IMG/VR virus record: IMGVR_UViG_2872147552_000001 | From: a virus | Taxonomy: Duplodnaviria; Heunggongvirae; Uroviricota; Caudoviricetes | DNA length: 64,000 bases | Strand: one strand, 5' to 3' | Part shown: piece by piece, positions 2,211 to 51,174 of the stretch | Position numbering within the stretch: position 1 is the stretch's first letter | How the letters are laid out: each line of letters starts with the position of its first letter | Position numbers and translations under genes: made by a program | The notes under the pieces: generated by a model | The model's database searches: none | Told to the model about the DNA's origin: nothing | Seen by the model: only the letters and a program-made list of their open reading frames with translations

Positions 2211-2861
2211 ATGGCTAACATTATCATTTCTAAAAAATCCATCATTGAAGCTGCTTCCATTGTATCCGATGAACTGCGCGAAAAAGCAGATCTGGCAACT
2301 CAAACATATAACGAACATTATAAAAATGGTACGCACACTAAAGCAGACAAAGCAAATATGCAAGCTGCGACCACTAAACTTGCTTACTTCATCAACAACG
2401 TTGTAAACGCTGTAGAAGACGAAAAATTATGCTCTGTTTTCTACTATGCGATCAAAGCAAGCAAACAAGCGCCAGAAGTTTTTTTCCGTGATGCAATGAC
2501 TAACAGTTATTCTCTGGAAAAACTGGTTTATCTGGTCAAATCAATTAAATCTGGTAAATGCGTTTATTCCGTCGCTGATATGTCAGGATCTCGTGTATTT
2601 GCTTTAATCGATATGATTAACGACGAGATCGACACGTTCACCAATGGCGCTGTTTTCGATTTAATGAATGAAGCTAAAAAAGCGTGCGAAATTAAATTGG
2701 ACGCTGGCTATACTCAAGCCAACCAGTTGATCAATCTTTGCGAACGTCTCGGACTTGTTGAAAAAGTCAAAGGAGCTGGGAGCGCGAAAGCTGGTACTCA
2801 GCAATATCGCTTCGTTAAAAATGATTTTTATAACTATCTGGCTGATGCTTTTAAAGCGTAA
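2211..2861 (+). CDS. hypothetical protein (216 aa), AT-rich module
   Basis: ORF with AAGGA RBS; no family recognised. Confidence 0.5.
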   Translation: MANIIISKKSIIEAASIVSDELREKADLATQTYNEHYKNGTHTKADKANMQAATTKLAYFINNVVNAVEDEKLCSVFYYAIKASKQAPEVFFRDAMTNSYSLEKLVYLVKSIKSGKCVYSVADMSGSRVFALIDMINDEIDTFTNGAVFDLMNEAKKACEIKLDAGYTQANQLINLCERLGLVEKVKGAGSAKAGTQQYRFVKNDFYNYLADAFKA

Positions 2862-19192: not shown

Positions 19193-19215
19193 AACTAAGT
19201 AAGTATTTACCTATC
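19193..19215 (-). promoter_or_regulatory. class B palindrome
   Basis: ctaagtaagtatttacctatc. Confidence 0.4.
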
Positions 19216-26377: not shown

Positions 26378-26400
26378 CGATAGGTAAGTGATTACCTATT
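26378..26400 (-). promoter_or_regulatory. class B palindrome
   Basis: cgATAGGTAAGTgATTACCTATt, near-perfect dyad 10 nt upstream of the methyltransferase start. Confidence 0.5.
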
Positions 26401-26551: not shown

Positions 26552-27361
26552 TCATCCAATAGTGTACTCCGCGACAAACTTCTTAACGATCGGTGATTCT
26601 TCGTTCAATGTTAGATTTCCACCGTCTCTAACAGCAATTCCTGTAGCTGGAAATACAGCCATCATTTGCCCAGCCTGAGTTGACGCAGTGTTAAGCGGAT
26701 ACGGTTTTTCTGGATTGCTCATTAAAGCAATCTTAATACTATTACTTGTAGCCTTCTTTTCTGTGAGAAGGTGTCTCATGGAAATTACCGTGTAAACACT
26801 AATATCTGGACCTCCGCTAAACCAATTAAGAAGGTTTAATATCTTATCCTTTGCTTTGACAGGCGCGTTTTCGTAAGCGTCTAAGAAAATATCTTTTTCT
26901 AAGCCTGCTTTATTGAAAAACAAATCATCTTTATCACTTAAAGTAAAACGAGGACCTCTTGCAGTACGAGCTTTTTTATTTGTATTGCTATCATTTGACT
27001 GTTGAACTTTTAATTCATCATTAACCTCAACACACTCTTCAACCTCAATAAACCCCAATTGTTCTGGCTCGTTTTCGGCAGATTCAACACTTTCAGCCTT
27101 AATTACGTTTATAGGCTCATGAGCTAACTCCAACTCATTTAAAGCGGAGCTGAAATCACCTGCTTTTCCTTCATTGAACAGTTCTTCGGCAACATCATCA
27201 GAACTCATGGCTACGCCAGCATCGAGGCCGAGAAGCAGATCGTCAATATCATCAGTATTTTCAACCTGTGCAGCTTTTTTTACTGGTTCATCAAGTGATT
27301 GCAACATGGCTGTCAGCTCATCCAGATCATCATTTGTCATTACATTTTCAACCGAACTCAT
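26552..27361 (-). CDS. acidic hypothetical protein (269 aa)
   Basis: Highly acidic N-terminal half. Confidence 0.5.
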   Translation of the reverse strand: MSSVENVMTNDDLDELTAMLQSLDEPVKKAAQVENTDDIDDLLLGLDAGVAMSSDDVAEELFNEGKAGDFSSALNELELAHEPINVIKAESVESAENEPEQLGFIEVEECVEVNDELKVQQSNDSNTNKKARTARGPRFTLSDKDDLFFNKAGLEKDIFLDAYENAPVKAKDKILNLLNWFSGGPDISVYTVISMRHLLTEKKATSNSIKIALMSNPEKPYPLNTASTQAGQMMAVFPATGIAVRDGGNLTLNEESPIVKKFVAEYTIG

Positions 27362-27482
27362 GTAAGTCTCCTTCTGTTTGGTTACATTTGCGTTTCGATG
27401 GCTACATTTTGACTAAACCTATCAGGCGGAAAAGTATTAAATACAGGCAGGAAATGATTGAAAGGCGACTGTTCTTTAAAAG

Positions 27483-27515
27483 AAAGCCTACTTTAAACTT
27501 TTTAAAGTAGGCTTT
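27483..27515 (-). terminator. rho-independent terminator
   Basis: aaagcctactttaaactttttaaagtaggcttt with T-runs on both sides. Confidence 0.55.
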
Positions 27516-27519
27516 TGTT

Positions 27520-28077
27520 TTACACAATTTCAGAGGGTAATTTAAAAAATCCGTACTTATTACGTGCCTTAAAGAAGCATTGCATCATTAAGTTTGTGTC
27601 ATATAAGGCACTATGTGCTTTGGCATGATCGTATATAAAGCCAAGAGAGAAGGCCAACTCTTCAAGGCGGGGACGTTTACCGTCTTCTGTGGCCCACAAT
27701 CCCGATAACATAGTATCTATAACAGGAACTTCTGGCAGTCTTACTCCATACCCTGAAAACTCGTGTCGAATAAATGGTATATCAAATGCTTCGCCGTTAT
27801 GAGCAACCCACACACTACATGCCCCCATATAAGCGCCAATTTCGCTGGCATGATTTGACAACAAAGGTTCAGCTGCGAGCTGTTCCAATGAAATGCCATG
27901 AACGGCTTGAGCTTTCGGATCTATGTTTCTGCGAGGGTTAAAACGCATCTCCAGACTATCAATATGTCTCTGTGTCTCCAGTTCATAGCGGGTAATTGCG
28001 ATTTCAATAATTTTATGACCAGCAAGGAAATCCAGTCCCGTAGACTCGATATCGATGCCTGCAACAATCGTTGTCAT
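27520..28077 (-). CDS. DnaQ-like 3'-5' exonuclease (DEDDh)
   Basis: Exo I GIDIESTG, Exo II HNGEAFD, Exo III YDHAKAHSALYD. Confidence 0.75.
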   Translation of the reverse strand: MTTIVAGIDIESTGLDFLAGHKIIEIAITRYELETQRHIDSLEMRFNPRRNIDPKAQAVHGISLEQLAAEPLLSNHASEIGAYMGACSVWVAHNGEAFDIPFIRHEFSGYGVRLPEVPVIDTMLSGLWATEDGKRPRLEELAFSLGFIYDHAKAHSALYDTNLMMQCFFKARNKYGFFKLPSEIV

Positions 28078-31217: not shown

Positions 31218-31235
31218 GATAAGTAATTACTTATT
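31218..31235 (-). promoter_or_regulatory. class B palindrome
   Basis: gATAAGTAATTACTTATt, perfect dyad about 15 nt upstream of the thyA start. Confidence 0.5.
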
Positions 31236-41482: not shown

Positions 41483-41700
41483 TTATCCACTGGATAGATC
41501 CAAATAAGAGATCCCAAGTAAGATCAAATAGAAGATCCAAAGAGATCCCAGATCGCCTCTAGCCGTTGCGGTTACTGGTCTGAAAGGGTGTTGCCATCCA
41601 CTATGGAGAGCAAAGAAACCTCTGTAGAGAGCTGAATAACCGCTATGAAGAGTAAAACAACCACTCTGGAGAGCTGTATATATCCACTGTAGAGAGTAGA
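41483..41700. promoter_or_regulatory. origin-like unit 1: DnaA box, GATC cluster, iteron array
   Basis: TTATCCAC at 41483; six GATC in 41497-41554; five approx 21-bp-spaced iterons CCACTnTrGAGAG 41596-41700. Confidence 0.6.
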
Positions 41701-41808
41701 GCACATTGTCTTTTATGGATAACTTAATGACTTAATTCTTCATTAACATACTGATATACATAGATATATTTTAAACTCTACTCTTAGTCATGATTCTTAT
41801 GTCCTTAA

Positions 41809-42098
41809 ATATCCACAGAAGAGTAGAGTTACCTGTTCTTGAAATCCTCTGATTTTTATCCACAGGCCCGATCCAGTAATTCAGATCACAAAGAGAACCA
41901 AAGAGACCCATAAAGACCCAATAAGATCCCCGCCCACCTCAAACCGTTGTGCCATCTGCCTTCAGACATGATCGATATCCACTATAGAGAGCGAATAATC
42001 CACTATAGGGAGCAAAGCAACCACTATAGAGAGGAGAAAAACCACTATAGACGGTAGGATAACCGCTGTGATGAGTGCTACTATCCACTGTAATCAGC
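41809..42098. promoter_or_regulatory. origin-like unit 2 (incC-like): DnaA boxes, GATC sites, iterons before repA
   Basis: ATATCCACA 41809, TTATCCACA 41856; GATC sites; six iterons 41976-42098. Confidence 0.65.
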
Positions 42099-42138
42099 AA
42101 AGGCCACCAAAGCCGTCGAATAACAAGAGACATTTGGA

Positions 42139-43194
42139 ATGAGCGAAAACGGCAATAAAAACATAGCGATCGTTGAAGCATTTTCAGAAACAGATAAAAA
42201 GACAGGCGAAGTTGTTACGTTGGTTCCTAACACTAATAACACTGTTCAGCCTGTTGCTTTGATGCGTCTGGGCCTCTTCGTTCCGACGCTGAAATCGACA
42301 TCCAGAGGAAGAAAGGGGCAAATGGTCTCTATGGATGCCTCTGCTGAACTCAAACAGCTGTCTCTGGCAAAAGCCGAAGGGTACGAAGACATAAGGATCT
42401 CTGGCCTTCGGCTTGATATGGATAACGACTTTAAAACGTGGGTGGGAATAATCCACGCGTTTGCCAAACACAAGGTCGTTGGCGATACTGTCACGTTGCC
42501 GTTCGTTGAGTTTGTAAGGCTGTGTGGCATTCCGACCGCCAGGTCATCAGCGAAGTTACGCAAACGCCTGGACAGTTCGCTAAGCCGTATTGCCACAAAT
42601 ACCATCTCGTTCCGTAGTAAAGGCTCTGATGAGTTTTACGTAACGCATCTTGTGCAAACGGCAAAATATAGTGTCAAGCACGATACGGTCGAACTGAAAG
42701 CAGATCCCAAGATTTTCGAACTCTACCAGTTCGACAAAAAGGTTCTTCTGCAACTCCGGGCTATAAACGAACTCTCAAGAAAAGAATCCGCTCAGGCGCT
42801 TTATACTTTTATTGAAAGTTTGCCGCCTGATCCGGCACCAATATCACTAGCCCGTTTACGCGCCAGACTTAATCTGACAAGTCGCACTATTACTCAGAAT
42901 GCGACGGTAAGAAAGGCTATGGAACAGCTGCGAGAGATAGGATATCTCGATTACACGGAAGTTAAGCGCGGAAACTCGGTCTACTTCGTCATCCACTATA
43001 GGCGGCCAAAGTTACGCCAGGCACAAATATCAACAAAAATCGATAATGATGAGACGGAATATAGCCTCCCAGATGAGAATCAAGATGACATTATCGACGT
43101 TGTGCCTGACGAAAAAGAAGGCAAAATGGTCATGTTGAGTAAAGAAGAACTGGCGCTTCTCGAAGAGTTGCGCAAGGCAAAGACTCGCAAATAG
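42139..43194 (+). CDS. repA: replication initiator RepA (P1/RepFIB iteron-binding type)
   Basis: [77 protein letters not shown] recalled as hallmark of P1/RepFIB RepA; iterons on both sides. Confidence 0.85.
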
Positions 43195-43196
43195 CC

Positions 43197-43675
43197 CAAC
43201 CACTGTAGTTAGTAGTAAGGCTCACTATCCACTGTAGTGAGCCTTACTTATATCTGTAATTCGCTATCCACTATAGTGAGTATCGTTATCTGTTGATAAC
43301 CACTGTAGGCAGTAGAATGCAAATACTGAATTAAATGTTAGTGATCACTAACACTGATGAAACAAGGGCTGCGAGGTTAGTGGTCACTGGGTATCTTGGA
43401 AAATTTACTGTCTATAGTGGTTGTTGTCGCCCTCATCTTTGAGCGTATCCACTGTGGCGAGTGGATATCCACTGAAAACAGCAAAGGCTTACTCACCATA
43501 GTGTATACCCGCTGGACATCTCACTCCAATACTCACCATAGTGGTTGTTTGATGCGAATGAAAGGCTGTCTACTCGCTACAGTGGTTAGCAGATATGTAG
43601 GAAGAGAGGACTGCAGACCACAGTGGATAATGAGCTGATACGAATGCGGTGAGCTGGCTACTCACCGCAGTGGTT
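43197..43675. repeat. incA-like iteron array downstream of repA
   Basis: At least ten CCACTGTAG / CTATAGTGG type iterons in both orientations. Confidence 0.65.
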
Positions 43676-43682
43676 GGTGCTA

Positions 43683-43895: not shown

Positions 43896-44230
43896 TATCC
43901 AACCTCCTTGCAGTCATCGAAAAGGTAGCTTTGCTGAGAAGCGTGAACGCCATAGAAGCCCTTGTATTTGTTGTATACGAAGTGGTCTTCTCCGACGCCG
44001 GTTAATTTGCCATTACGATTTGTGAGATATGGGGATGACAATACTCGATCGTCACGCACAACATAGAACTGGTCGCCGCTGTCTACGACCATCGCTCCAT
44101 ATGGTGCTTTTATGACGTCGGTAAGAGCACCATTCTTAACGTCGGCTACAGACATTTCACACTGATAAACAGTGGTGTCGGCCACAACGATCGAAGAAAG
44201 GAACAACAGCGCGAATGGGATGGCCTTCAT
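43895..44230 (-). CDS. secreted hypothetical protein (111 aa)
   Basis: Signal peptide MKAIPFALLFLSSIVVA; ATGA overlap with small membrane ORF. Confidence 0.45.
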   Translation of the reverse strand: MKAIPFALLFLSSIVVADTTVYQCEMSVADVKNGALTDVIKAPYGAMVVDSGDQFYVVRDDRVLSSPYLTNRNGKLTGVGEDHFVYNKYKGFYGVHASQQSYLFDDCKEVG

Positions 44231-44406
44231 GCTGCCACCTCTTTGATTACATCAAATGCTGAATTAAATACGAGCACGATAGCCAAAGCGTTTATGACTA
44301 CGTCGTGCACCGGGGAAAAGACTTTACGAATGACACCAGTGAAAATGCAGTCGATGACAAAAGCTATTGAAACGATGAGTAACAAGTATTCAATAAAAAT
44401 CTTCAT
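44227..44406 (-). CDS. small two-TM membrane protein (59 aa), not in ORF track
   Basis: MKIFIEYLLLIVSIAFVIDCIFTGVIRKVFSPVHDVVINALAIVLVFNSAFDVIKEVAA; stop overlaps next ATG. Confidence 0.35.
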   Translation of the reverse strand: MKIFIEYLLLIVSIAFVIDCIFTGVIRKVFSPVHDVVINALAIVLVFNSAFDVIKEVAA

Positions 44407-45232: not shown

Positions 45233-45293
45233 CTTAATAAGATAATTGCGATAAAAAAGGCGTCCAACTGGACGCCTGAACTTTTTAGGGGAG

Positions 45294-46124
45294 TTATTTC
45301 ACTGTAATGAAAGGAGTGTTAGCCCCTTGAGTCATGTACTGCGGTAACTGGCCATTCCATTTATTGATGGCTTCCAGTTCCATAACGTTCGGGTTTTGAC
45401 GCAGAGCTTCACCGCGCAGACGAATGGCGTCTGCTTCTGCTTGCGCACGAGCACGGATAGCATCAGCTTCACCATTAGCCTGTTCACGTAGCATATTCGC
45501 CTCAGCTTTACGTTGTTCAACTTCCTGCTGACGTTGCAGAGTACGCTGGTTAGCCGTTACTTTGGCGTTGATAGATTCTATGACGGTTTTTGGGTAATCA
45601 GGCTTTCCAACCCATGACAGGCTCAGTACCTCAATACCAACCGGAGACATCTCTTTCTGAATATCTTTCAGTGCGTTGTCCAGCAATTGCGCCTTACCAC
45701 CGTCGATAAATGAGTCAGTGGTCATACGGCTGGCCAAACGGTTTAGAGAGTCGGCAATTTTCTGACGCAGATCTGATTCGGTGATATCGTCTACGCCTTT
45801 GCGATAGGTCTGGAACACCGTCGTTACCTTGTCACGATTAACCAGATACGCAACGCCAATTTTGTGACCAATAGCAGTACCGTCACTCATCTGGAATGTG
45901 AATGGCTCGTCGTAGGTCTTCATTTGTTTGAAGGTCGGGAATACGTAAAGTTCGGTGTTAAGACCTGTCCATTGGCGACCAACGCCAACCACTTCACCAA
46001 TCCCTTTGTCTTCACCTAATTTGTTTACTTTGATGCCAACGTATCCAGGCTCCACGCGATCGCAGCCAGTAAGACCCATTGTGCAAATAGCCGCCAGAGC
46101 AACTGCAAGTAAACCTTTCTTCAT
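45294..46124 (-). CDS. SPFH/band-7 domain lipoprotein
   Basis: Lipobox LTGC after signal peptide; long coiled-coil Ala/Glu/Arg-rich segment typical of prohibitin/HflC-like proteins. Confidence 0.6.
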   Translation of the reverse strand: MKKGLLAVALAAICTMGLTGCDRVEPGYVGIKVNKLGEDKGIGEVVGVGRQWTGLNTELYVFPTFKQMKTYDEPFTFQMSDGTAIGHKIGVAYLVNRDKVTTVFQTYRKGVDDITESDLRQKIADSLNRLASRMTTDSFIDGGKAQLLDNALKDIQKEMSPVGIEVLSLSWVGKPDYPKTVIESINAKVTANQRTLQRQQEVEQRKAEANMLREQANGEADAIRARAQAEADAIRLRGEALRQNPNVMELEAINKWNGQLPQYMTQGANTPFITVK

Positions 46125-46127
46125 TAC

Positions 46128-46328
46128 TTATTTCCCCTTTGCTTTGATTAATGAGTTGATAAACTTACGACCAGCAATAAGACCGATTACAGGAGCACCA
46201 AAACCAACGATAACTCCAAACATGACGGCTAAATCACTCTTGGTAGAAATCAGCGACGGAACCAGTAAACCGTAGATGAGAGCCACTGAAAGGCCTGTGG
46301 CTACTGCCAATAGATAGATTTTGATCAT
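46128..46328 (-). CDS. small membrane protein (66 aa), possible partner of SPFH protein
   Basis: Two hydrophobic helices; ends 4 nt before the SPFH start. Confidence 0.45.
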   Translation of the reverse strand: MIKIYLLAVATGLSVALIYGLLVPSLISTKSDLAVMFGVIVGFGAPVIGLIAGRKFINSLIKAKGK

Positions 46329-46359
46329 GTGTTTTCCTATGTGGTTGTTATGCGAAAAT

Positions 46360-46378
46360 AATAAGTAAGTGCTTATAT
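46360..46378 (-). promoter_or_regulatory. class B palindrome
   Basis: aataagtaagtgcttatat. Confidence 0.4.
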
Positions 46379-46420
46379 ATTTTCAAGAGATAAAAAAGGC
46401 GTCCTGTGGACGCCTTGTGT

Positions 46421-48760
46421 TTACTCTTCTACTGACTCGGTGGGGTTGTCTTTTGCTCTTCGGTCGTCGATTGCCTGCAAAGCCGCAATGATTTCAGCCA
46501 GTGGCTTCTCCCGATACATCTCGACGATCTGCGATTTGGTGTATTTCTTGTCACCAATTTCAACTCGCCCGCTGGCGTTCTTTGGCAGGTATCCTTCTTC
46601 CAGCATGTACTCGACGAGCGATTCGATAACGTCGAGGCCACGAGTAGGATCGAAGTAGAATTTCCAGGTGCATTTGCCATACGGTGGTGCAACTTTGTTT
46701 TTGATGCATTCTGCGCCTACGTCCTGGCCGATCTTCTCTTTACCATCCTTCATCACCGATGCACCAAGACGGATACGTACAGAAGCGTAGAACTTCGGTG
46801 AATCTCCACCTGGCGACGTAGTAGGGTCGCCAAACATTACACCGATTTTTGTGCGAACCTGATTCAAGAAGATGATGCAGGCGTTGTATTTGCGTGCCCA
46901 CAAAGCCAGAGTAGGGAAGTTCGCACTCGTCGCACGAGCCAGTGCCGTATTGTCGTTCATGTTTAGCTGATCTTTGTCTTTGGCAGTGCCTTCAGCCATC
47001 TTTTCGAACTTCTCGGCTTTGGAGTTCGGAACCATAGACGCAAGAGAGTCAGCCACGATACAGATTGGTGCTGATTCGGGGATAAGCTCTTCATCACGAA
47101 CCAATTTAAGTATTGTGCCGATCAACTCTACAGAGTCTTCGAAGGTATCTGGCTGCTTGTATACCCACTGACCGTCATCCTCATCTGCGTTCAGGCCATT
47201 GGCGACAGCCAGGCCAACGTCAAAACTGTTTTCATGATCGAGGAATACCGCCAGACCATCCTGTTTTTGTGCTGACACCATCGCAGCCGTCGCGAGGAAT
47301 GTGTTGTGGCTGATAATCCCGTTAGACCAGAAAGAGTGTGTTTCCGGCATCGCTACGTCGAACGTTGGTGCTTCACCTTCCTCAATAGCCACGACTTCGT
47401 CGTAGAACAAGTTAGAGCCAATTACCGCTGCCAGTTGTGCAAACAGATGCTCGTTAAAACGATTCTTTCTGCCAATGAAGGAGACATAGATTTCTCGCAG
47501 TTTGTCTATTCCGACACGATCGCCGCGGCCAATAACGTGGTCTACCAGAGCGTAGTCTTCACGGGTGGTCTTGGTGAGCGACTCGTAGAGTGATTTCACT
47601 AAGCCGCTGATGTGCGGAACATAGCCTGAGTAAGTGCGGTCAAAACCAATGTCCCGTTTGGTTGCCACTGATAAACGTGCCGGAGATTCGAAACCAATCG
47701 TTGACAGAAAAAGGTCGTAATTAGAGCCACTGAATGACAGCCGGTAATATGTATTTTCATAACCCGCGACGTGTTTTTCAGAGATAGTTGACGTAATCCC
47801 CAGATTCAGGAGCATGAGGCGAATTTGCTGTAGCAGCAGCCCACTCGCGCTCACAACCTCAATGCAGCGACCATCATTGACGTGGCATTCCAGCTCAAAG
47901 TAGCCGCGAAGGAATGCAATTTGAGCCTCGCTATTGGCGCGACGCACACTCAACGGAACCTGCTTGCCAGCAGCTTTCTCATACTCCAGACCATATTCTT
48001 TAAAAAGCAGCGAACGCACCTCTTTGCTAAACAGCACATGGTCTTCCGAGCCGTTATGTTTTCTCGTAACTGGCATCTTGTCTGATACCAGCGAAATGAG
48101 GCGGTAGTACTCATCCTTGATGAATGGATCTGTGTTAGAAAAATGCACAGAATTTTCAGAGGCCACGTATCCGTCAGCAATTAAATAGCCCATCAGTTTT
48201 GCGATATTGGCATCCAGGTGCTGATCGCCGAATTGATGTGTGCCAACCATTGAAGGAATCGTGTCGCCTACACTGATTTTTTCAGCATACCGCCAGACGA
48301 TATTGCCTAAGTCGTCAACCACACGGATTGGGTGACGGAACGTAGCCTCGATGTAACCCCCTGATGCCAGCTTAATGCGCTTGAATTTGCGACGGTTGTT
48401 CCATGTCAGGTGTGAGGTCTTCTCTATCACGCCATTTTCATTGATGAGTCCAACGTTATGCTCTACATCGCGAGTAGTGCATGTCGCTTTGTACCCTTCA
48501 ATCTCAAACAACTCTTTCACTGTTACCATTCCACGCTCCGTCAGCAGCATGGTGTCTGCGGTAACACATTTCCCCGCACTTGGTGGCCCGAATACTTCTA
48601 CGATACGACCACATGGGAAACCGCCATCGTAACGACCGGAAATAGCTTTGTTTAACGGAGGAAAGCCTGTGTCAATCCAATGAGTTACTTTCTGAATTTC
48701 GTCGTTGCTACCGATTTTCTTTTTCAGAGCAAGTGCCAGTGCGGATTTTCCTTTTGCCAT
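46421..48760 (-). CDS. RecA-family recombinase interrupted by an intein
   Basis: Exteins GRIVEVFGPPSAGK|TF, QPDT.E, IIFLNQVRTKIGVMFGDP, KFYASVRIRL match RecA motifs; 422-aa insert after the Walker A lysine. Confidence 0.7.
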   Translation of the reverse strand: MAKGKSALALALKKKIGSNDEIQKVTHWIDTGFPPLNKAISGRYDGGFPCGRIVEVFGPPSAGKCVTADTMLLTERGMVTVKELFEIEGYKATCTTRDVEHNVGLINENGVIEKTSHLTWNNRRKFKRIKLASGGYIEATFRHPIRVVDDLGNIVWRYAEKISVGDTIPSMVGTHQFGDQHLDANIAKLMGYLIADGYVASENSVHFSNTDPFIKDEYYRLISLVSDKMPVTRKHNGSEDHVLFSKEVRSLLFKEYGLEYEKAAGKQVPLSVRRANSEAQIAFLRGYFELECHVNDGRCIEVVSASGLLLQQIRLMLLNLGITSTISEKHVAGYENTYYRLSFSGSNYDLFLSTIGFESPARLSVATKRDIGFDRTYSGYVPHISGLVKSLYESLTKTTREDYALVDHVIGRGDRVGIDKLREIYVSFIGRKNRFNEHLFAQLAAVIGSNLFYDEVVAIEEGEAPTFDVAMPETHSFWSNGIISHNTFLATAAMVSAQKQDGLAVFLDHENSFDVGLAVANGLNADEDDGQWVYKQPDTFEDSVELIGTILKLVRDEELIPESAPICIVADSLASMVPNSKAEKFEKMAEGTAKDKDQLNMNDNTALARATSANFPTLALWARKYNACIIFLNQVRTKIGVMFGDPTTSPGGDSPKFYASVRIRLGASVMKDGKEKIGQDVGAECIKNKVAPPYGKCTWKFYFDPTRGLDVIESLVEYMLEEGYLPKNASGRVEIGDKKYTKSQIVEMYREKPLAEIIAALQAIDDRRAKDNPTESVEE
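47303..48568 (-). mobile_element. intein with LAGLIDADG homing-endonuclease domain
   Basis: Insert begins Cys (CVTADTMLL) and ends HN before Thr; LMGYLIADGYV and LRGYFELECHVND motifs. Confidence 0.6.
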
Positions 48761-51145: not shown

Positions 51146-51174
51146 GATAGATCAGTACTTACTTATTATCTATC
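51146..51174 (-). promoter_or_regulatory. class B palindrome
   Basis: gatagatcagtacttacttattatctatc. Confidence 0.4.

What the first reader, a model, noticed from the sequence alone, without database searches (positions are those of the whole stretch)
45294..46378. SPFH/band-7 lipoprotein paired with a 66-aa membrane protein
A lipobox-bearing SPFH-domain protein with a long coiled-coil tail is followed 4 nt later by a small two-helix membrane protein, under a class B dyad. SPFH proteins organise membrane microdomains and usually pair with NfeD-like partners; on a phage-like element they might modulate membrane proteases, lysis timing or superinfection exclusion.
Basis: partly seen in the sequence, partly recalled or inferred. 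Interest (0 to 1): 0.5.

Follow-up and report, generated by a model that had tools for sequence, protein, structure and literature searches.

The report
Phage SPFH lipoprotein with membrane partner
A self-contained two-gene cassette on an E. coli phage-plasmid encodes a lipid-anchored, HflK/C-like membrane scaffold protein and a 66-residue membrane hairpin; the two are paired, and sometimes fused, in nearly every phage locus examined, including classic phage N4, and I found no published function for either.

Summary
On the minus strand, a 66-aa two-helix membrane protein (46328..46128) is followed 3 nt later by a 276-aa lipobox-bearing SPFH/Band-7 protein (46124..45294; Pfam E=2.6e-30). An AF2 model of a natural-fusion homologue (77% identical) best matches HflK/HflC. 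The window is an SSU5/Cyrano-type phage-plasmid.

A profile of the small protein hits one ORF in the 64-kb window. It hits exactly one co-directional ORF in 159 of 160 viral loci that carry an SPFH homologue, usually directly upstream. Natural in-frame fusions exist, and coliphage N4 gp19-gp20 is the same module. The partner is not NfeD and matches no Pfam or PDB family.

The cassette is its own transcription unit. It has a sigma-70-like promoter overlapped by a dispersed operator-like dyad, and two same-stem terminators flank it. In Cyrano it is silent in LB.

Best reading: the lipoprotein forms an HflK/C-like ring or cage on the periplasmic face of the inner membrane, together with its obligate hairpin partner, and is made outside stable lysogeny. 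The biological role is unresolved: FtsH or membrane homeostasis, superinfection exclusion, or lysis timing.

It is a new variant of a known kind, of moderate interest.

The parts
46396..46416 (-). Intrinsic terminator-like hairpin (AAGGCGTCC-ACA-GGACGCCTT followed by TTTTTT). It ends the upstream intein-containing RecA-like gene and forms the upstream border of the cassette.
   Evidence: 9-bp stem, 6 GC pairs, T run. (-15.6 kcal/mol, z=-6.1); the stem GGCGTCC..GGACGCC occurs only twice in the 64 kb, at the two ends of this cassette.
46358..46386 (-). Sigma-70-type promoter TTGAAA-17 nt-TATTAT of the two-gene operon.
   Evidence: 10 of 12 matches, the best in the 5.4 kb scanned. It is conserved in Cyrano as TTGAAA-17-TATCAT. 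This is a consensus match only; the transcription start was not mapped.
46361..46376 (.). Operator-like palindrome ATAAGCACTTACTTAT that overlaps the promoter spacer and -10. It is one copy of a dispersed dyad family.
   Evidence: 16 matches on both strands, about 9 sites, against 0.52 expected. (at least 16 sites in Cyrano, nearly all in intergenic regions). That a repressor binds it is inferred.
46128..46328 (-). 66-aa inner-membrane hairpin protein (PHROG 1130). It has two TM helices, and both ends are predicted cytoplasmic. The conserved periplasmic turn is P24-x-L-I-S28-x-K-S-D, and G38 is invariant.
   Evidence: phrog_1130, E=2e-25; profile, E=1.4e-18, unique hit in the window; hydropathy; invariant P24, S28, G38. 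A Shine-Dalgarno sequence AGGAAAA lies 3 nt upstream of the ATG.
45294..46124 (-). 276-aa SPFH/Band-7 lipoprotein (PHROG 200). It comprises a signal peptide with lipobox (Cys21, Asp22), the SPFH domain, a helix of about 65 residues, and the conserved C-terminal motif I-N-K-W-N-G-x-L-P.
   Evidence: (C21, G49 and W256 invariant in 49 homologues). A Shine-Dalgarno sequence AAGGGG lies inside the end of the upstream ORF.
45258..45277 (-). Intrinsic terminator-like hairpin (AGGCGTCC-AGTT-GGACGCCT followed by TTTTTT) that ends the operon.
   Evidence: (-15.6 kcal/mol, z=-4.3).

Best explanation
The cassette is a phage two-component membrane scaffold.

SHOWN by sequence or structure prediction:
(1) The operon has its own promoter, whose spacer and -10 are covered by a dispersed palindrome, and its own terminator.
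(2) The first product is a 2-TM hairpin with short termini and a conserved turn.
(3) The second product has a Sec/lipoprotein signal with an invariant Cys, followed by an SPFH domain, a helix of about 65 residues and a conserved C-terminal motif. These are the elements that HflK/C, prohibitin, erlin, stomatin and flotillin use to build rings or cages.
(4) The two genes are inherited together across very different phages and are sometimes fused in frame. The partner is kept even where the SPFH protein has its own TM anchor.

INFERRED:
- The lipoprotein is exported, acylated at Cys21 and retained in the inner membrane (Asp+2). Its SPFH domain therefore faces the periplasm, as in HflK/C.
- It oligomerises into a ring or cage on the periplasmic face of the inner membrane.
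- The hairpin is an obligate co-subunit or enclosed client, contacted through its periplasmic turn.
- The promoter is held off in stable lysogeny by a regulator that binds the dyad, and fires in lytic growth or stress.

ROLE (least certain): the strong conservation across phages of different hosts suggests the target is a conserved feature of the host inner membrane rather than a rival phage's protein. I therefore favour fencing off a membrane patch to modulate FtsH-type quality control or to preserve membrane integrity during infection (about 0.35 for this group). Superinfection exclusion gets about 0.25, lysis timing about 0.15, and other roles the rest.
For: Fold and family:
- Pfam Band_7 E=2.6e-30.
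- The best NCBIfam and PDB sequence neighbours are HflC and HflK.
- The AF2 model has pLDDT 83. Its top Foldseek hits are HflK/C 7vhq at E about 6e-14, then prohibitin, erlin, stomatin, flotillin and QmcA-YbbJ.

Topology:
- The lipobox Cys is invariant in 49 aligned homologues.
- At least 9 representatives, and loci L174, L177 and L181, replace it with an uncleaved hydrophobic anchor. That is compatible only with an inner-membrane, periplasm-facing protein.

Pairing:
- One profile hit in the window.
- 159 of 160 viral loci have exactly one co-directional hit; 152 of these are directly upstream.
- The pair is present in P88, phiP27, the N4-like phage KpCHEMY26, PVP-SE1, the LUZ24-like phage TL, and N4 gp19-gp20.
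- About 18 of 150 representatives at 50% identity are in-frame fusions. One of them, P0021, was verified on two contigs.
- The partner is retained alongside TM-anchored SPFH proteins.

Regulation:
- Promoter and dyad; terminators.
- In the 95%-identical Cyrano cassette, CYRAN_56/57 are at background in LB (log2 2.3 to 4.3) and are not listed as morons. They rise to 7.3-7.7 six hours inside macrophages, while the RecA and exonuclease neighbours stay near 3-4 (PMC9928086 main text and S1 table).
- In other phages the module sits in early or middle regions among nucleotide-metabolism genes, never with lysis genes.
Against: - No experiment on this family was found.
- Oligomerisation, lipidation, localisation and partner contact are all unverified, and the model coordinates could not be inspected for contacts.
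- Similarity to HflK/C is at superfamily level only (15-19% identity). The HflK and HflC equivalog scores are far below their cut-offs.
- The +2 rule does not hold across the family: N4 gp20 has C-Y-D and PVP-SE1 has C-E-R. Some members could therefore reach the outer membrane.
- The Pasteurella prophage 'HflK/C-like' PM0222 was reported in outer-membrane vesicles (PMC9872710). I could not verify that it belongs to this family.
- That the dyad is a repressor operator is a guess. It also precedes structural genes, so it could be a phage-specific promoter element instead.
Confidence: 0.55

Rival explanations
1. Superinfection exclusion or envelope barrier. The pair is made early in infection, or on stress in the lysogen. 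From the periplasmic face of the inner membrane it blocks DNA entry or membrane penetration by secondary phages, in the way T4 Imm/Sp, P22 SieA or the lipoproteins Llp, Cor and Ltp do.
For: - It has the early/middle position, the membrane and periplasmic location and the small size typical of exclusion genes.
- In N4 it follows gp18, which is annotated 'superinfection exclusion, similar to P22 gp17'.
- In PVP-SE1 and KpCHEMY26 it clusters with other small membrane proteins.
- Its patchy, cassette-like distribution, 413 of 50,697 phage records, fits an accessory competition gene.
- N4's exclusion system is still unidentified (PMC12642591).
Against: - Exclusion proteins are usually lineage-specific and evolve fast. 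This SPFH protein is 64% identical between N4 and an SSU5-like siphovirus, and 38-47% identical to proteins of Pseudomonas and rV5-like phages that have different receptors and ejection machinery.
- It is not expressed in the Cyrano lysogen in LB.
- No PADLOC model matches.
Confidence: 0.25
2. A dedicated HflK/C mimic that captures or displaces host FtsH, stabilising phage regulators (CII-like) or phage membrane proteins.
For: - HflC and HflK are the nearest named relatives by sequence and structure, and they share the periplasm-facing topology.
- The module sits in early operons next to lysis-lysogeny switch genes in P88 (C/cox) and phiP27 (int/xis).
- FtsH is universal, which matches the breadth of hosts.
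Against: - The module is common in strictly virulent phages that make no lysogeny decision.
- There is one SPFH gene rather than a K/C pair.
- Equivalog scores are far below their cut-offs.
- Foldseek scores prohibitin, erlin and stomatin almost as well as HflK/C.
- Nothing here links the pair to FtsH.
Confidence: 0.2
3. A lysis-timing device. The 2-TM protein is holin-, pinholin- or antiholin-like. The SPFH ring restrains it, or restrains membrane-tethered endolysin, delaying lysis. This would make it a candidate factor in N4 lysis inhibition.
For: - The partner has class II holin-like size and topology, with a basic C-terminus.
- N4 shows lysis inhibition through unidentified inhibitory factors (PMC12642591).
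- Cyrano's endolysin has a C-terminal TM anchor.
Against: - The module is never next to endolysin, holin or spanin genes in 70 diverse contigs or in the annotated phages.
- There is no consistent Pfam holin match: one weak hit among 13 members.
- The conserved residues lie in the periplasmic turn, not in a glycine zipper.
- Spontaneous N4 rapid-lysis mutants mapped elsewhere.
Confidence: 0.15
4. A lysogenic-conversion or virulence lipoprotein. It is exported to the outer membrane or vesicles and acts on the animal host (TLR2 agonist), with no role in the phage cycle.
For: - The Pasteurella prophage SPFH protein PM0222 was reported in OMVs and affects virulence (PMC9872710).
- The Cyrano pair is induced 8- to 40-fold inside macrophages.
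- The cassette has a moron-like promoter-plus-terminator structure.
Against: - The module is widespread in environmental and virulent phages of non-pathogens.
- Asp+2 and the TM-anchored variants point to the inner membrane.
- The obligate inner-membrane partner is unexplained by this reading.
- PM0222's membership of this family was not verified.
Confidence: 0.05

Closest known systems
E. coli HflK/HflC-FtsH complex (PDB 7vhq, 7wi3, 9cz2)
   Same: It has an SPFH domain, a long coiled-coil helix and a C-terminal cap segment. It is the best sequence and structure neighbour. Its SPFH domain sits on the periplasmic side of the inner membrane.
   Different: It has a lipid anchor (Cys21) instead of an N-terminal TM helix, and a single SPFH gene rather than a K/C heteromer. 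Identity is 15-19%, and TIGR01932/TIGR01933 score 30 and 19 bits against cut-offs of 134 and 159. It has a dedicated 2-TM partner that HflK/C lacks. No link to FtsH was shown.
SPFH-NfeD operons (QmcA-YbbJ, PDB 8z5g; YqiK-YqiJ; archaeal PH1511-PH1510)
   Same: An SPFH gene is co-transcribed with, and strictly linked to, a small multi-TM partner gene. Fused forms of the two also occur.
   Different: The partner has no NfeD OB-fold domain and no PF01957 match. It lies upstream rather than following the usual order. The SPFH domain is predicted to be periplasmic, whereas QmcA and YqiK face the cytoplasm (established knowledge).
Coliphage N4 gp19-gp20 (also PHROG 1130 + PHROG 200)
   Same: It is the same module. 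gp20 is 64% identical and gp19 matches the partner profile at E=2e-12, and the two genes overlap. Homologous pairs occur in P88, phiP27, Stx2a phages, N4-like, rV5-like and LUZ24-like phages.
   Different: In N4 it lies in the middle-gene block of a virulent podovirus, without the dyad-bearing promoter and flanking terminators seen here. None of these pairs has a described function, and annotations range from 'lipoprotein' to the unsupported 'serine protease' and 'transposase fusion'.
Phage superinfection-exclusion envelope proteins (T4 Imm + Sp, T5 Llp, P22 SieA)
   Same: They are small inner-membrane or lipid-anchored periplasmic proteins made early by the resident phage. This is a resemblance in kind, recalled from the literature (PMC7677548, PMC9586334 and PMC10883804, listed).
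   Different: There is no sequence or fold relation. Those proteins are lineage-specific, whereas this pair is conserved across phage families.

Membership tests
SPFH / Band 7 superfamily (Pfam PF01145) | Match to the Band_7 profile above the gathering score | tested here: met
   106.2 bits against a 23.6-bit cut-off, E=2.6e-30, residues 23-209 covering profile positions 2-176 of 176.
SPFH / Band 7 superfamily (Pfam PF01145) | Alpha/beta SPFH fold followed by a long helix, as in the cage-forming members | tested here: met
   AF2 model of the natural fusion homologue P0021 (77% identical) has pLDDT 83 and a helix at 250-314. Foldseek gives probability 1.00 to HflK/C, prohibitin, erlin, stomatin and flotillin.
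SPFH / Band 7 superfamily (Pfam PF01145) | Assembly into a large homo- or hetero-oligomeric ring or cage on a membrane | not testable with these tools
   Only monomer prediction was available. Assembly is inferred from the conserved helix and the C-terminal K-W-[ND]-G-x-L-P motif.
HflK / HflC (FtsH modulators) | Score above the equivalog cut-offs of TIGR01933 / TIGR01932 | tested here: not met
   18.7 and 30.2 bits against cut-offs of 159.4 and 134.4.
HflK / HflC (FtsH modulators) | Two paralogous SPFH subunits encoded together, each with an N-terminal TM anchor | tested here: not met
   There is one SPFH gene per cassette in the window and in 160 loci. The anchor is a lipobox Cys; a few relatives have a TM anchor.
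HflK / HflC (FtsH modulators) | Physical association with FtsH | not testable with these tools
   This needs co-purification or cross-linking.
SPFH-NfeD operon | Partner carries the NfeD C-terminal OB-fold domain (PF01957) | tested here: not met
   The partner has 66 aa, about 40 of them in two TM helices. No Pfam match at E<=0.01, and none of 13 family members matches NfeD at E<=1.
SPFH-NfeD operon | Strict co-directional adjacency of the SPFH gene and a membrane partner gene | tested here: met
   159 of 160 viral loci, 152 of them directly upstream. In-frame fusions exist.
Bacterial lipoprotein (Lgt/LspA substrates) | Signal peptide ending in a lipobox [LVI][ASTVI][GAS]C | tested here: met
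   MKK + h-region + L-T-G-C21. The Cys is invariant in 49 homologues, and about 92 of 124 assessable representatives have a canonical box. Actual acylation was not tested.
Bacterial lipoprotein (Lgt/LspA substrates) | Inner-membrane retention signal (Asp at +2 in Enterobacteria) | tested here: inconclusive
   Asp22 is present here and in the close enterobacterial relatives (CDRVEPG). However, +3 is Arg, and N4 (C-Y-D) and PVP-SE1 (C-E-R) differ. Localisation needs fractionation.
Holin / pinholin (class II) | Small 2-TM protein encoded in a lysis cassette next to endolysin or spanin genes | tested here: not met
   The topology fits. However, the lysis cassette of the Cyrano relative lies 30 kb away, and no lysis genes flank the module in 70 diverse contigs. 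One weak holin-family hit appears among 13 members.
Known anti-phage defence systems (PADLOC-DB 2.0) | Match of either protein to a defence-system model | tested here: not met
   No hit at E<=0.1 for either protein.
Moron (autonomous transcription unit in a prophage) | Own promoter and terminator between neighbouring phage genes | tested here: met
   Promoter and flanking terminators. These are sequence-level matches only.
Moron (autonomous transcription unit in a prophage) | Expression from the repressed prophage | tested here: not met
   In the 95%-identical Cyrano cassette, transcript levels are at background in LB, and the genes are absent from the authors' moron list (PMC9928086). They are induced in macrophages at 6 h (column headers).

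The most novel reading that the evidence does not exclude
Phages of many families build their own periplasm-facing SPFH cage around a dedicated 2-TM client. This would create a private inner-membrane compartment that acts as a general device against secondary infection or premature lysis. It would make N4 gp19-gp20 a candidate for that phage's still unidentified superinfection-exclusion or lysis-inhibition factor.
Probability: 0.2. Interest if true: 0.8.

Novelty: new variant of a known kind. Interest (0 to 1): 0.5.

Why it matters
SPFH proteins (HflK/C, prohibitins, stomatins, flotillins, erlins) have recently been shown to form cages that wall off patches of membrane. What such cages are for is still debated.

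A virus-encoded version should be a compact, genetically tractable model. It has an obligate 60-70-residue partner, natural fusions, lipid-anchored and TM-anchored variants, and a presence in classic phage N4.

The module occurs in about 0.8% of sequenced phage genomes and about 5% of complete E. coli genomes. Assigning it a function would therefore annotate thousands of genes now labelled 'lipoprotein', 'serine protease' or 'hypothetical'. It could also reveal a general way in which phages manage the host inner membrane.

Tried and rejected
Searches that failed:
- A locus search with the 49-sequence alignment failed because no conserved stretch was available.
- Single-protein locus searches with P0149 and P0218 found nothing.

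Negative results:
- PADLOC gave no hit.
- The partner has no meaningful Pfam or PDB match.
- Eight literature searches found no functional study of this family. The N4 lysis preprint's rapid-lysis mutants do not map to gp19 or gp20. The CRISPRi-ART paper says nothing on them.

Rejected readings:
- The 'serine protease' and 'transposase fusion protein' annotations of homologues. Only Band_7 is detected.
- The partner as NfeD.
- The partner as a mere surrogate membrane anchor, because TM-anchored SPFH variants keep it.
- The small ORF as a chance ORF.
- A toxin-antidote role for plasmid maintenance, because the module is common in virulent phages.
- Membership of a lysis cassette.

Full report
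**What is in the sequence**

Both reading frames lie on the minus strand.

The upstream gene, 46328..46128, encodes 66 residues: MIKIYLLAVATGLSVALIYGLLVPSLISTKSDLAVMFGVIVGFGAPVIGLIAGRKFINSLIKAKGK. It has two hydrophobic segments, about residues 4-24 and 33-53, a nine-residue turn and a basic tail. The positive-inside rule, which is established knowledge, places both ends in the cytoplasm and the turn in the periplasm.

Three bases after its TAA stop, the second gene begins (46124..45294, 276 aa). It opens with MKKGLLAVALAAICTMGLTGC|DRVE, a lipoprotein signal with lipobox L-T-G-C21 and Asp at +2. Each gene has a Shine-Dalgarno sequence.

**The SPFH assignment is secure**

- Pfam Band_7 scores 106 bits (cut-off 23.6, E=2.6e-30). 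The Glu/Ala-rich tail gives a sub-threshold Flotillin match.
- The nearest named relatives are HflC and HflK, but far below their equivalog cut-offs. HflK is also the only PDB sequence hit.
- An AlphaFold2 model of a natural fusion homologue has mean pLDDT 83. It shows three TM helices, the SPFH domain and a 65-residue helix.
- Foldseek's best matches are HflK/HflC (7vhq, E about 6e-14), followed by prohibitin, erlin, stomatin, flotillin, QmcA-YbbJ and major vault protein. All of these build rings or cages.
- Across 49 homologues at 30-60% identity, the lipobox Cys, G49 and W256 are invariant. A C-terminal K-W-[ND]-G-x-L-P motif is nearly so.

**Where the window comes from**

The cassette is 99-100% identical to about 110-kb non-mobilisable E. 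coli plasmids (185 PLSDB records) and 95% identical to phage Cyrano. Cyrano is the SSU5-like phage-plasmid of E. coli LF82. It occurs in 291 of 5,426 complete E. coli genomes. About 100 of the matches are chromosomal prophage variants at about 76% identity.

Its neighbours are a RecA-like gene interrupted by a LAGLIDADG intein, a DUF7238 gene, small ORFs, and RepA with iterons.

**The pairing is the main result**

Protein-level searching finds the SPFH lipoprotein in 413 of 50,697 phage records. They include:
- temperate phages: phiP27, Stx2a-converting phages and the P2/186-like phage P88;
- virulent phages: N4-like, rV5/PVP-SE1-like, LUZ24-like and phiEa21-4-like phages, phiCbK, jumbo phages, Lak phages and crAss-like phages.

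The small protein diverges too fast for BLAST. I therefore built a profile from 7 separate genes and 16 N-terminal extensions. The alignment is almost gap-free through the two helices and the turn. P24, S28 and G38 are invariant in a 13-sequence subset.

The profile gave these results:
- It hits exactly one ORF in the whole 64-kb window (E=1.4e-18).
- I tested it on 160 IMG/VR loci that hold an SPFH homologue. Eighty were close relatives; the other 80, at 42-55% identity, were found with a different clade's alignment.
- 159 of the 160 have exactly one hit, always on the same strand. Of these, 152 are directly upstream or overlapping and two are in-frame fusions (L142, L155). Two more lie within 1 kb upstream and three just downstream.

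Annotated phages show the same arrangement. P88 has gp11-gp12. phiP27 has an unannotated 62-codon ORF that overlaps gene L05 by 4 nt. KpCHEMY26 has an overlapping pair. PVP-SE1 and TL each have one gene intercalated between the two.

Coliphage N4 gp19 (68 aa, E=2e-12) and gp20 (64% identical to the window protein) are the same module.

About 18 of the 150 best representatives at 50% identity are single polypeptides. They run hairpin, basic linker, signal-like helix with lipobox, then SPFH. One of them, P0021, translates intact from two independent contigs.

Variants whose SPFH protein lacks the Cys and carries an ordinary TM anchor still have the hairpin gene upstream (L174, L177, L181). The hairpin is therefore a functional partner, not merely a substitute anchor. 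Those TM-anchored variants also fix the topology as inner membrane with the SPFH domain in the periplasm.

**What the partner is not**

It is not NfeD: there is no room for an OB-fold and no PF01957 match. It has no Pfam family and no solved relative. Its only home is PHROG 1130. Neither protein matches a PADLOC defence model.

**Transcription unit and regulation**

Two hairpins with the same stem, GGCGTCC...GGACGCC, each followed by a T run, occur only twice in the window. They lie at 46396-46416 and 45258-45277, bracketing the cassette.

Between the upstream terminator and the first gene lies the best sigma-70-like promoter of the region, TTGAAA-17-TATTAT. Its spacer and -10 are covered by the palindrome ATAAGCACTTACTTAT.

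That motif is strongly over-represented: 16 matches against 0.52 expected. In Cyrano it lies in front of at least 16 transcription units, including DNA-metabolism and structural genes. I read it as a dispersed operator, as in P1. A phage-specific promoter element is not excluded.

Published LF82 transcriptomes fit a promoter that is off in ordinary lysogeny:
- CYRAN_56/57 are at background in LB and are absent from the authors' moron list.
- They rise to log2 7.3-7.7 six hours inside macrophages.
- The flanking RecA and exonuclease genes stay near 3-4 (PMC9928086).

In other phages the module sits in early or middle regions. In 70 diverse contigs its neighbours are nucleotide- and NAD-metabolism genes and never lysis genes.

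**Mechanism**

Shown:
- an autonomous, probably regulated operon;
- an inner-membrane hairpin with a conserved periplasmic turn;
- an exported, lipobox-bearing SPFH protein with all the elements used for cage assembly;
- obligate co-inheritance, including fusion.

Inferred:
- acylation at Cys21;
- retention in the inner membrane (Asp+2, supported by the TM-anchored relatives);
- oligomerisation into an HflK/C-like ring or cage on the periplasmic face;
- the hairpin as co-subunit or enclosed client.

I put 0.55 on this assembly-level model.

The biological role is open. The unusually high conservation across phages with unrelated receptors and hosts points to a conserved host target. That target would be the inner membrane itself or FtsH-type quality control (about 0.35 together, of which a strict HflK/C-FtsH mimic is about 0.2). 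Superinfection exclusion gets about 0.25, lysis timing about 0.15, and a host-directed virulence lipoprotein about 0.05.

**Comparison with known systems and novelty**

The window's protein is already annotated 'SPFH domain-containing protein' in RefSeq, so the fold itself is not news.

The following appear to be undescribed in the literature I could search:
- the strict two-gene module with a non-NfeD partner;
- its natural fusions;
- the lipid-anchored, periplasm-facing design;
- the identity with N4 gp19-gp20.

It works like an SPFH-plus-partner operon and resembles HflK/C in topology. It fails the membership tests for HflK/C and for SPFH-NfeD. I class it as a new variant of a known kind, with interest 0.5.

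Noticed in passing
window 6218, 19195-19214, 24169, 26380-26399, 31219-31234, 35930, 40609, 46361-46376, 51151-51166, 57730-57745: A dispersed 15/16-bp palindrome (consensus about ATAAGTA-n-TACTTAT) gives 16 matches on both strands against 0.52 expected. In the related phage Cyrano it precedes at least 16 transcription units, including structural genes. It is probably the operator of a phage regulator, as with the dispersed operators of P1, or else a phage-specific promoter element.
   Followed up: partly
window 46421-48760 (-): The 779-aa RecA-like recombinase is interrupted by an intein with a LAGLIDADG homing-endonuclease domain (Pfam RecA, Intein_splicing, LAGLIDADG_3).
   Followed up: no
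window 45258-45277 and 46396-46416: The two terminators that bracket the cassette share the same stem and about 16 nt of upstream sequence (GATAAAAAAGGCGTCC). They form about 30-bp direct repeats 1,139 bp apart and occur nowhere else in the window. This suggests the cassette was acquired or exchanged as a unit.
   Followed up: partly
window 41484-42104 and 43198-43680, flanking RepA 42139-43194 (+): Arrays of 18-21-bp iteron-like repeats (ATCCACTATAGAGAG type) lie on both sides of the RepA gene. This is the plasmid replication origin of the phage-plasmid.
   Followed up: no
L003 (phage phiP27, NC_003356) 2316-2504 (+): An unannotated 62-codon ORF encodes the hairpin partner. It overlaps the annotated lipoprotein gene L05 by 4 nt. 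The RefSeq record shows an empty 360-nt gap at this position.
   Followed up: yes
L009 5729-6304 (NCBI assembly GCA_035826095.1, contig JAPPYW010000018.1): A Tad2-like (anti-Thoeris) gene lies about 700 nt downstream of the naturally fused hairpin-SPFH gene. The module can therefore sit in an anti-defence or accessory region.
   Followed up: no
L005 (PVP-SE1) 2329-2493 and L006 (phage TL) 2225-2443: In rV5-like and LUZ24-like phages a third small gene sits between the hairpin gene and the SPFH gene. In PVP-SE1 it is a 54-aa protein that looks like a ribbon-helix-helix domain. A three-gene variant of the module may therefore exist.
   Followed up: no
L172 (Cyrano) 27076-27768; outside the window: The endolysin of this phage-plasmid family ends in a hydrophobic C-terminal helix (..VRIIFGIATIVVAGFIAWSQVRKHQKGMV). 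It appears to be a membrane-tethered endolysin with a C-terminal rather than an N-terminal (SAR) anchor.
   Followed up: no
window 44227-44406 (-) and its Cyrano homologue CYRAN_60: The 59-aa membrane ORF two genes downstream is also induced inside macrophages in the LF82 data (log2 2.3 in LB rising to about 8.6 at 6 h), as is the SPFH pair. Several small genes of this block respond to that condition.
   Followed up: no
Phage records listed (e.g. LC567838, MN163281, LN610578, MT119371, KU682439): Homologues of the SPFH lipoprotein are variously annotated 'serine protease', 'SPFH serine protease', 'putative transposase' or 'transposase fusion protein'. For the window's protein, the only significant domain found by profile search is Band_7. 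The homologues themselves were not scanned.
   Followed up: partly
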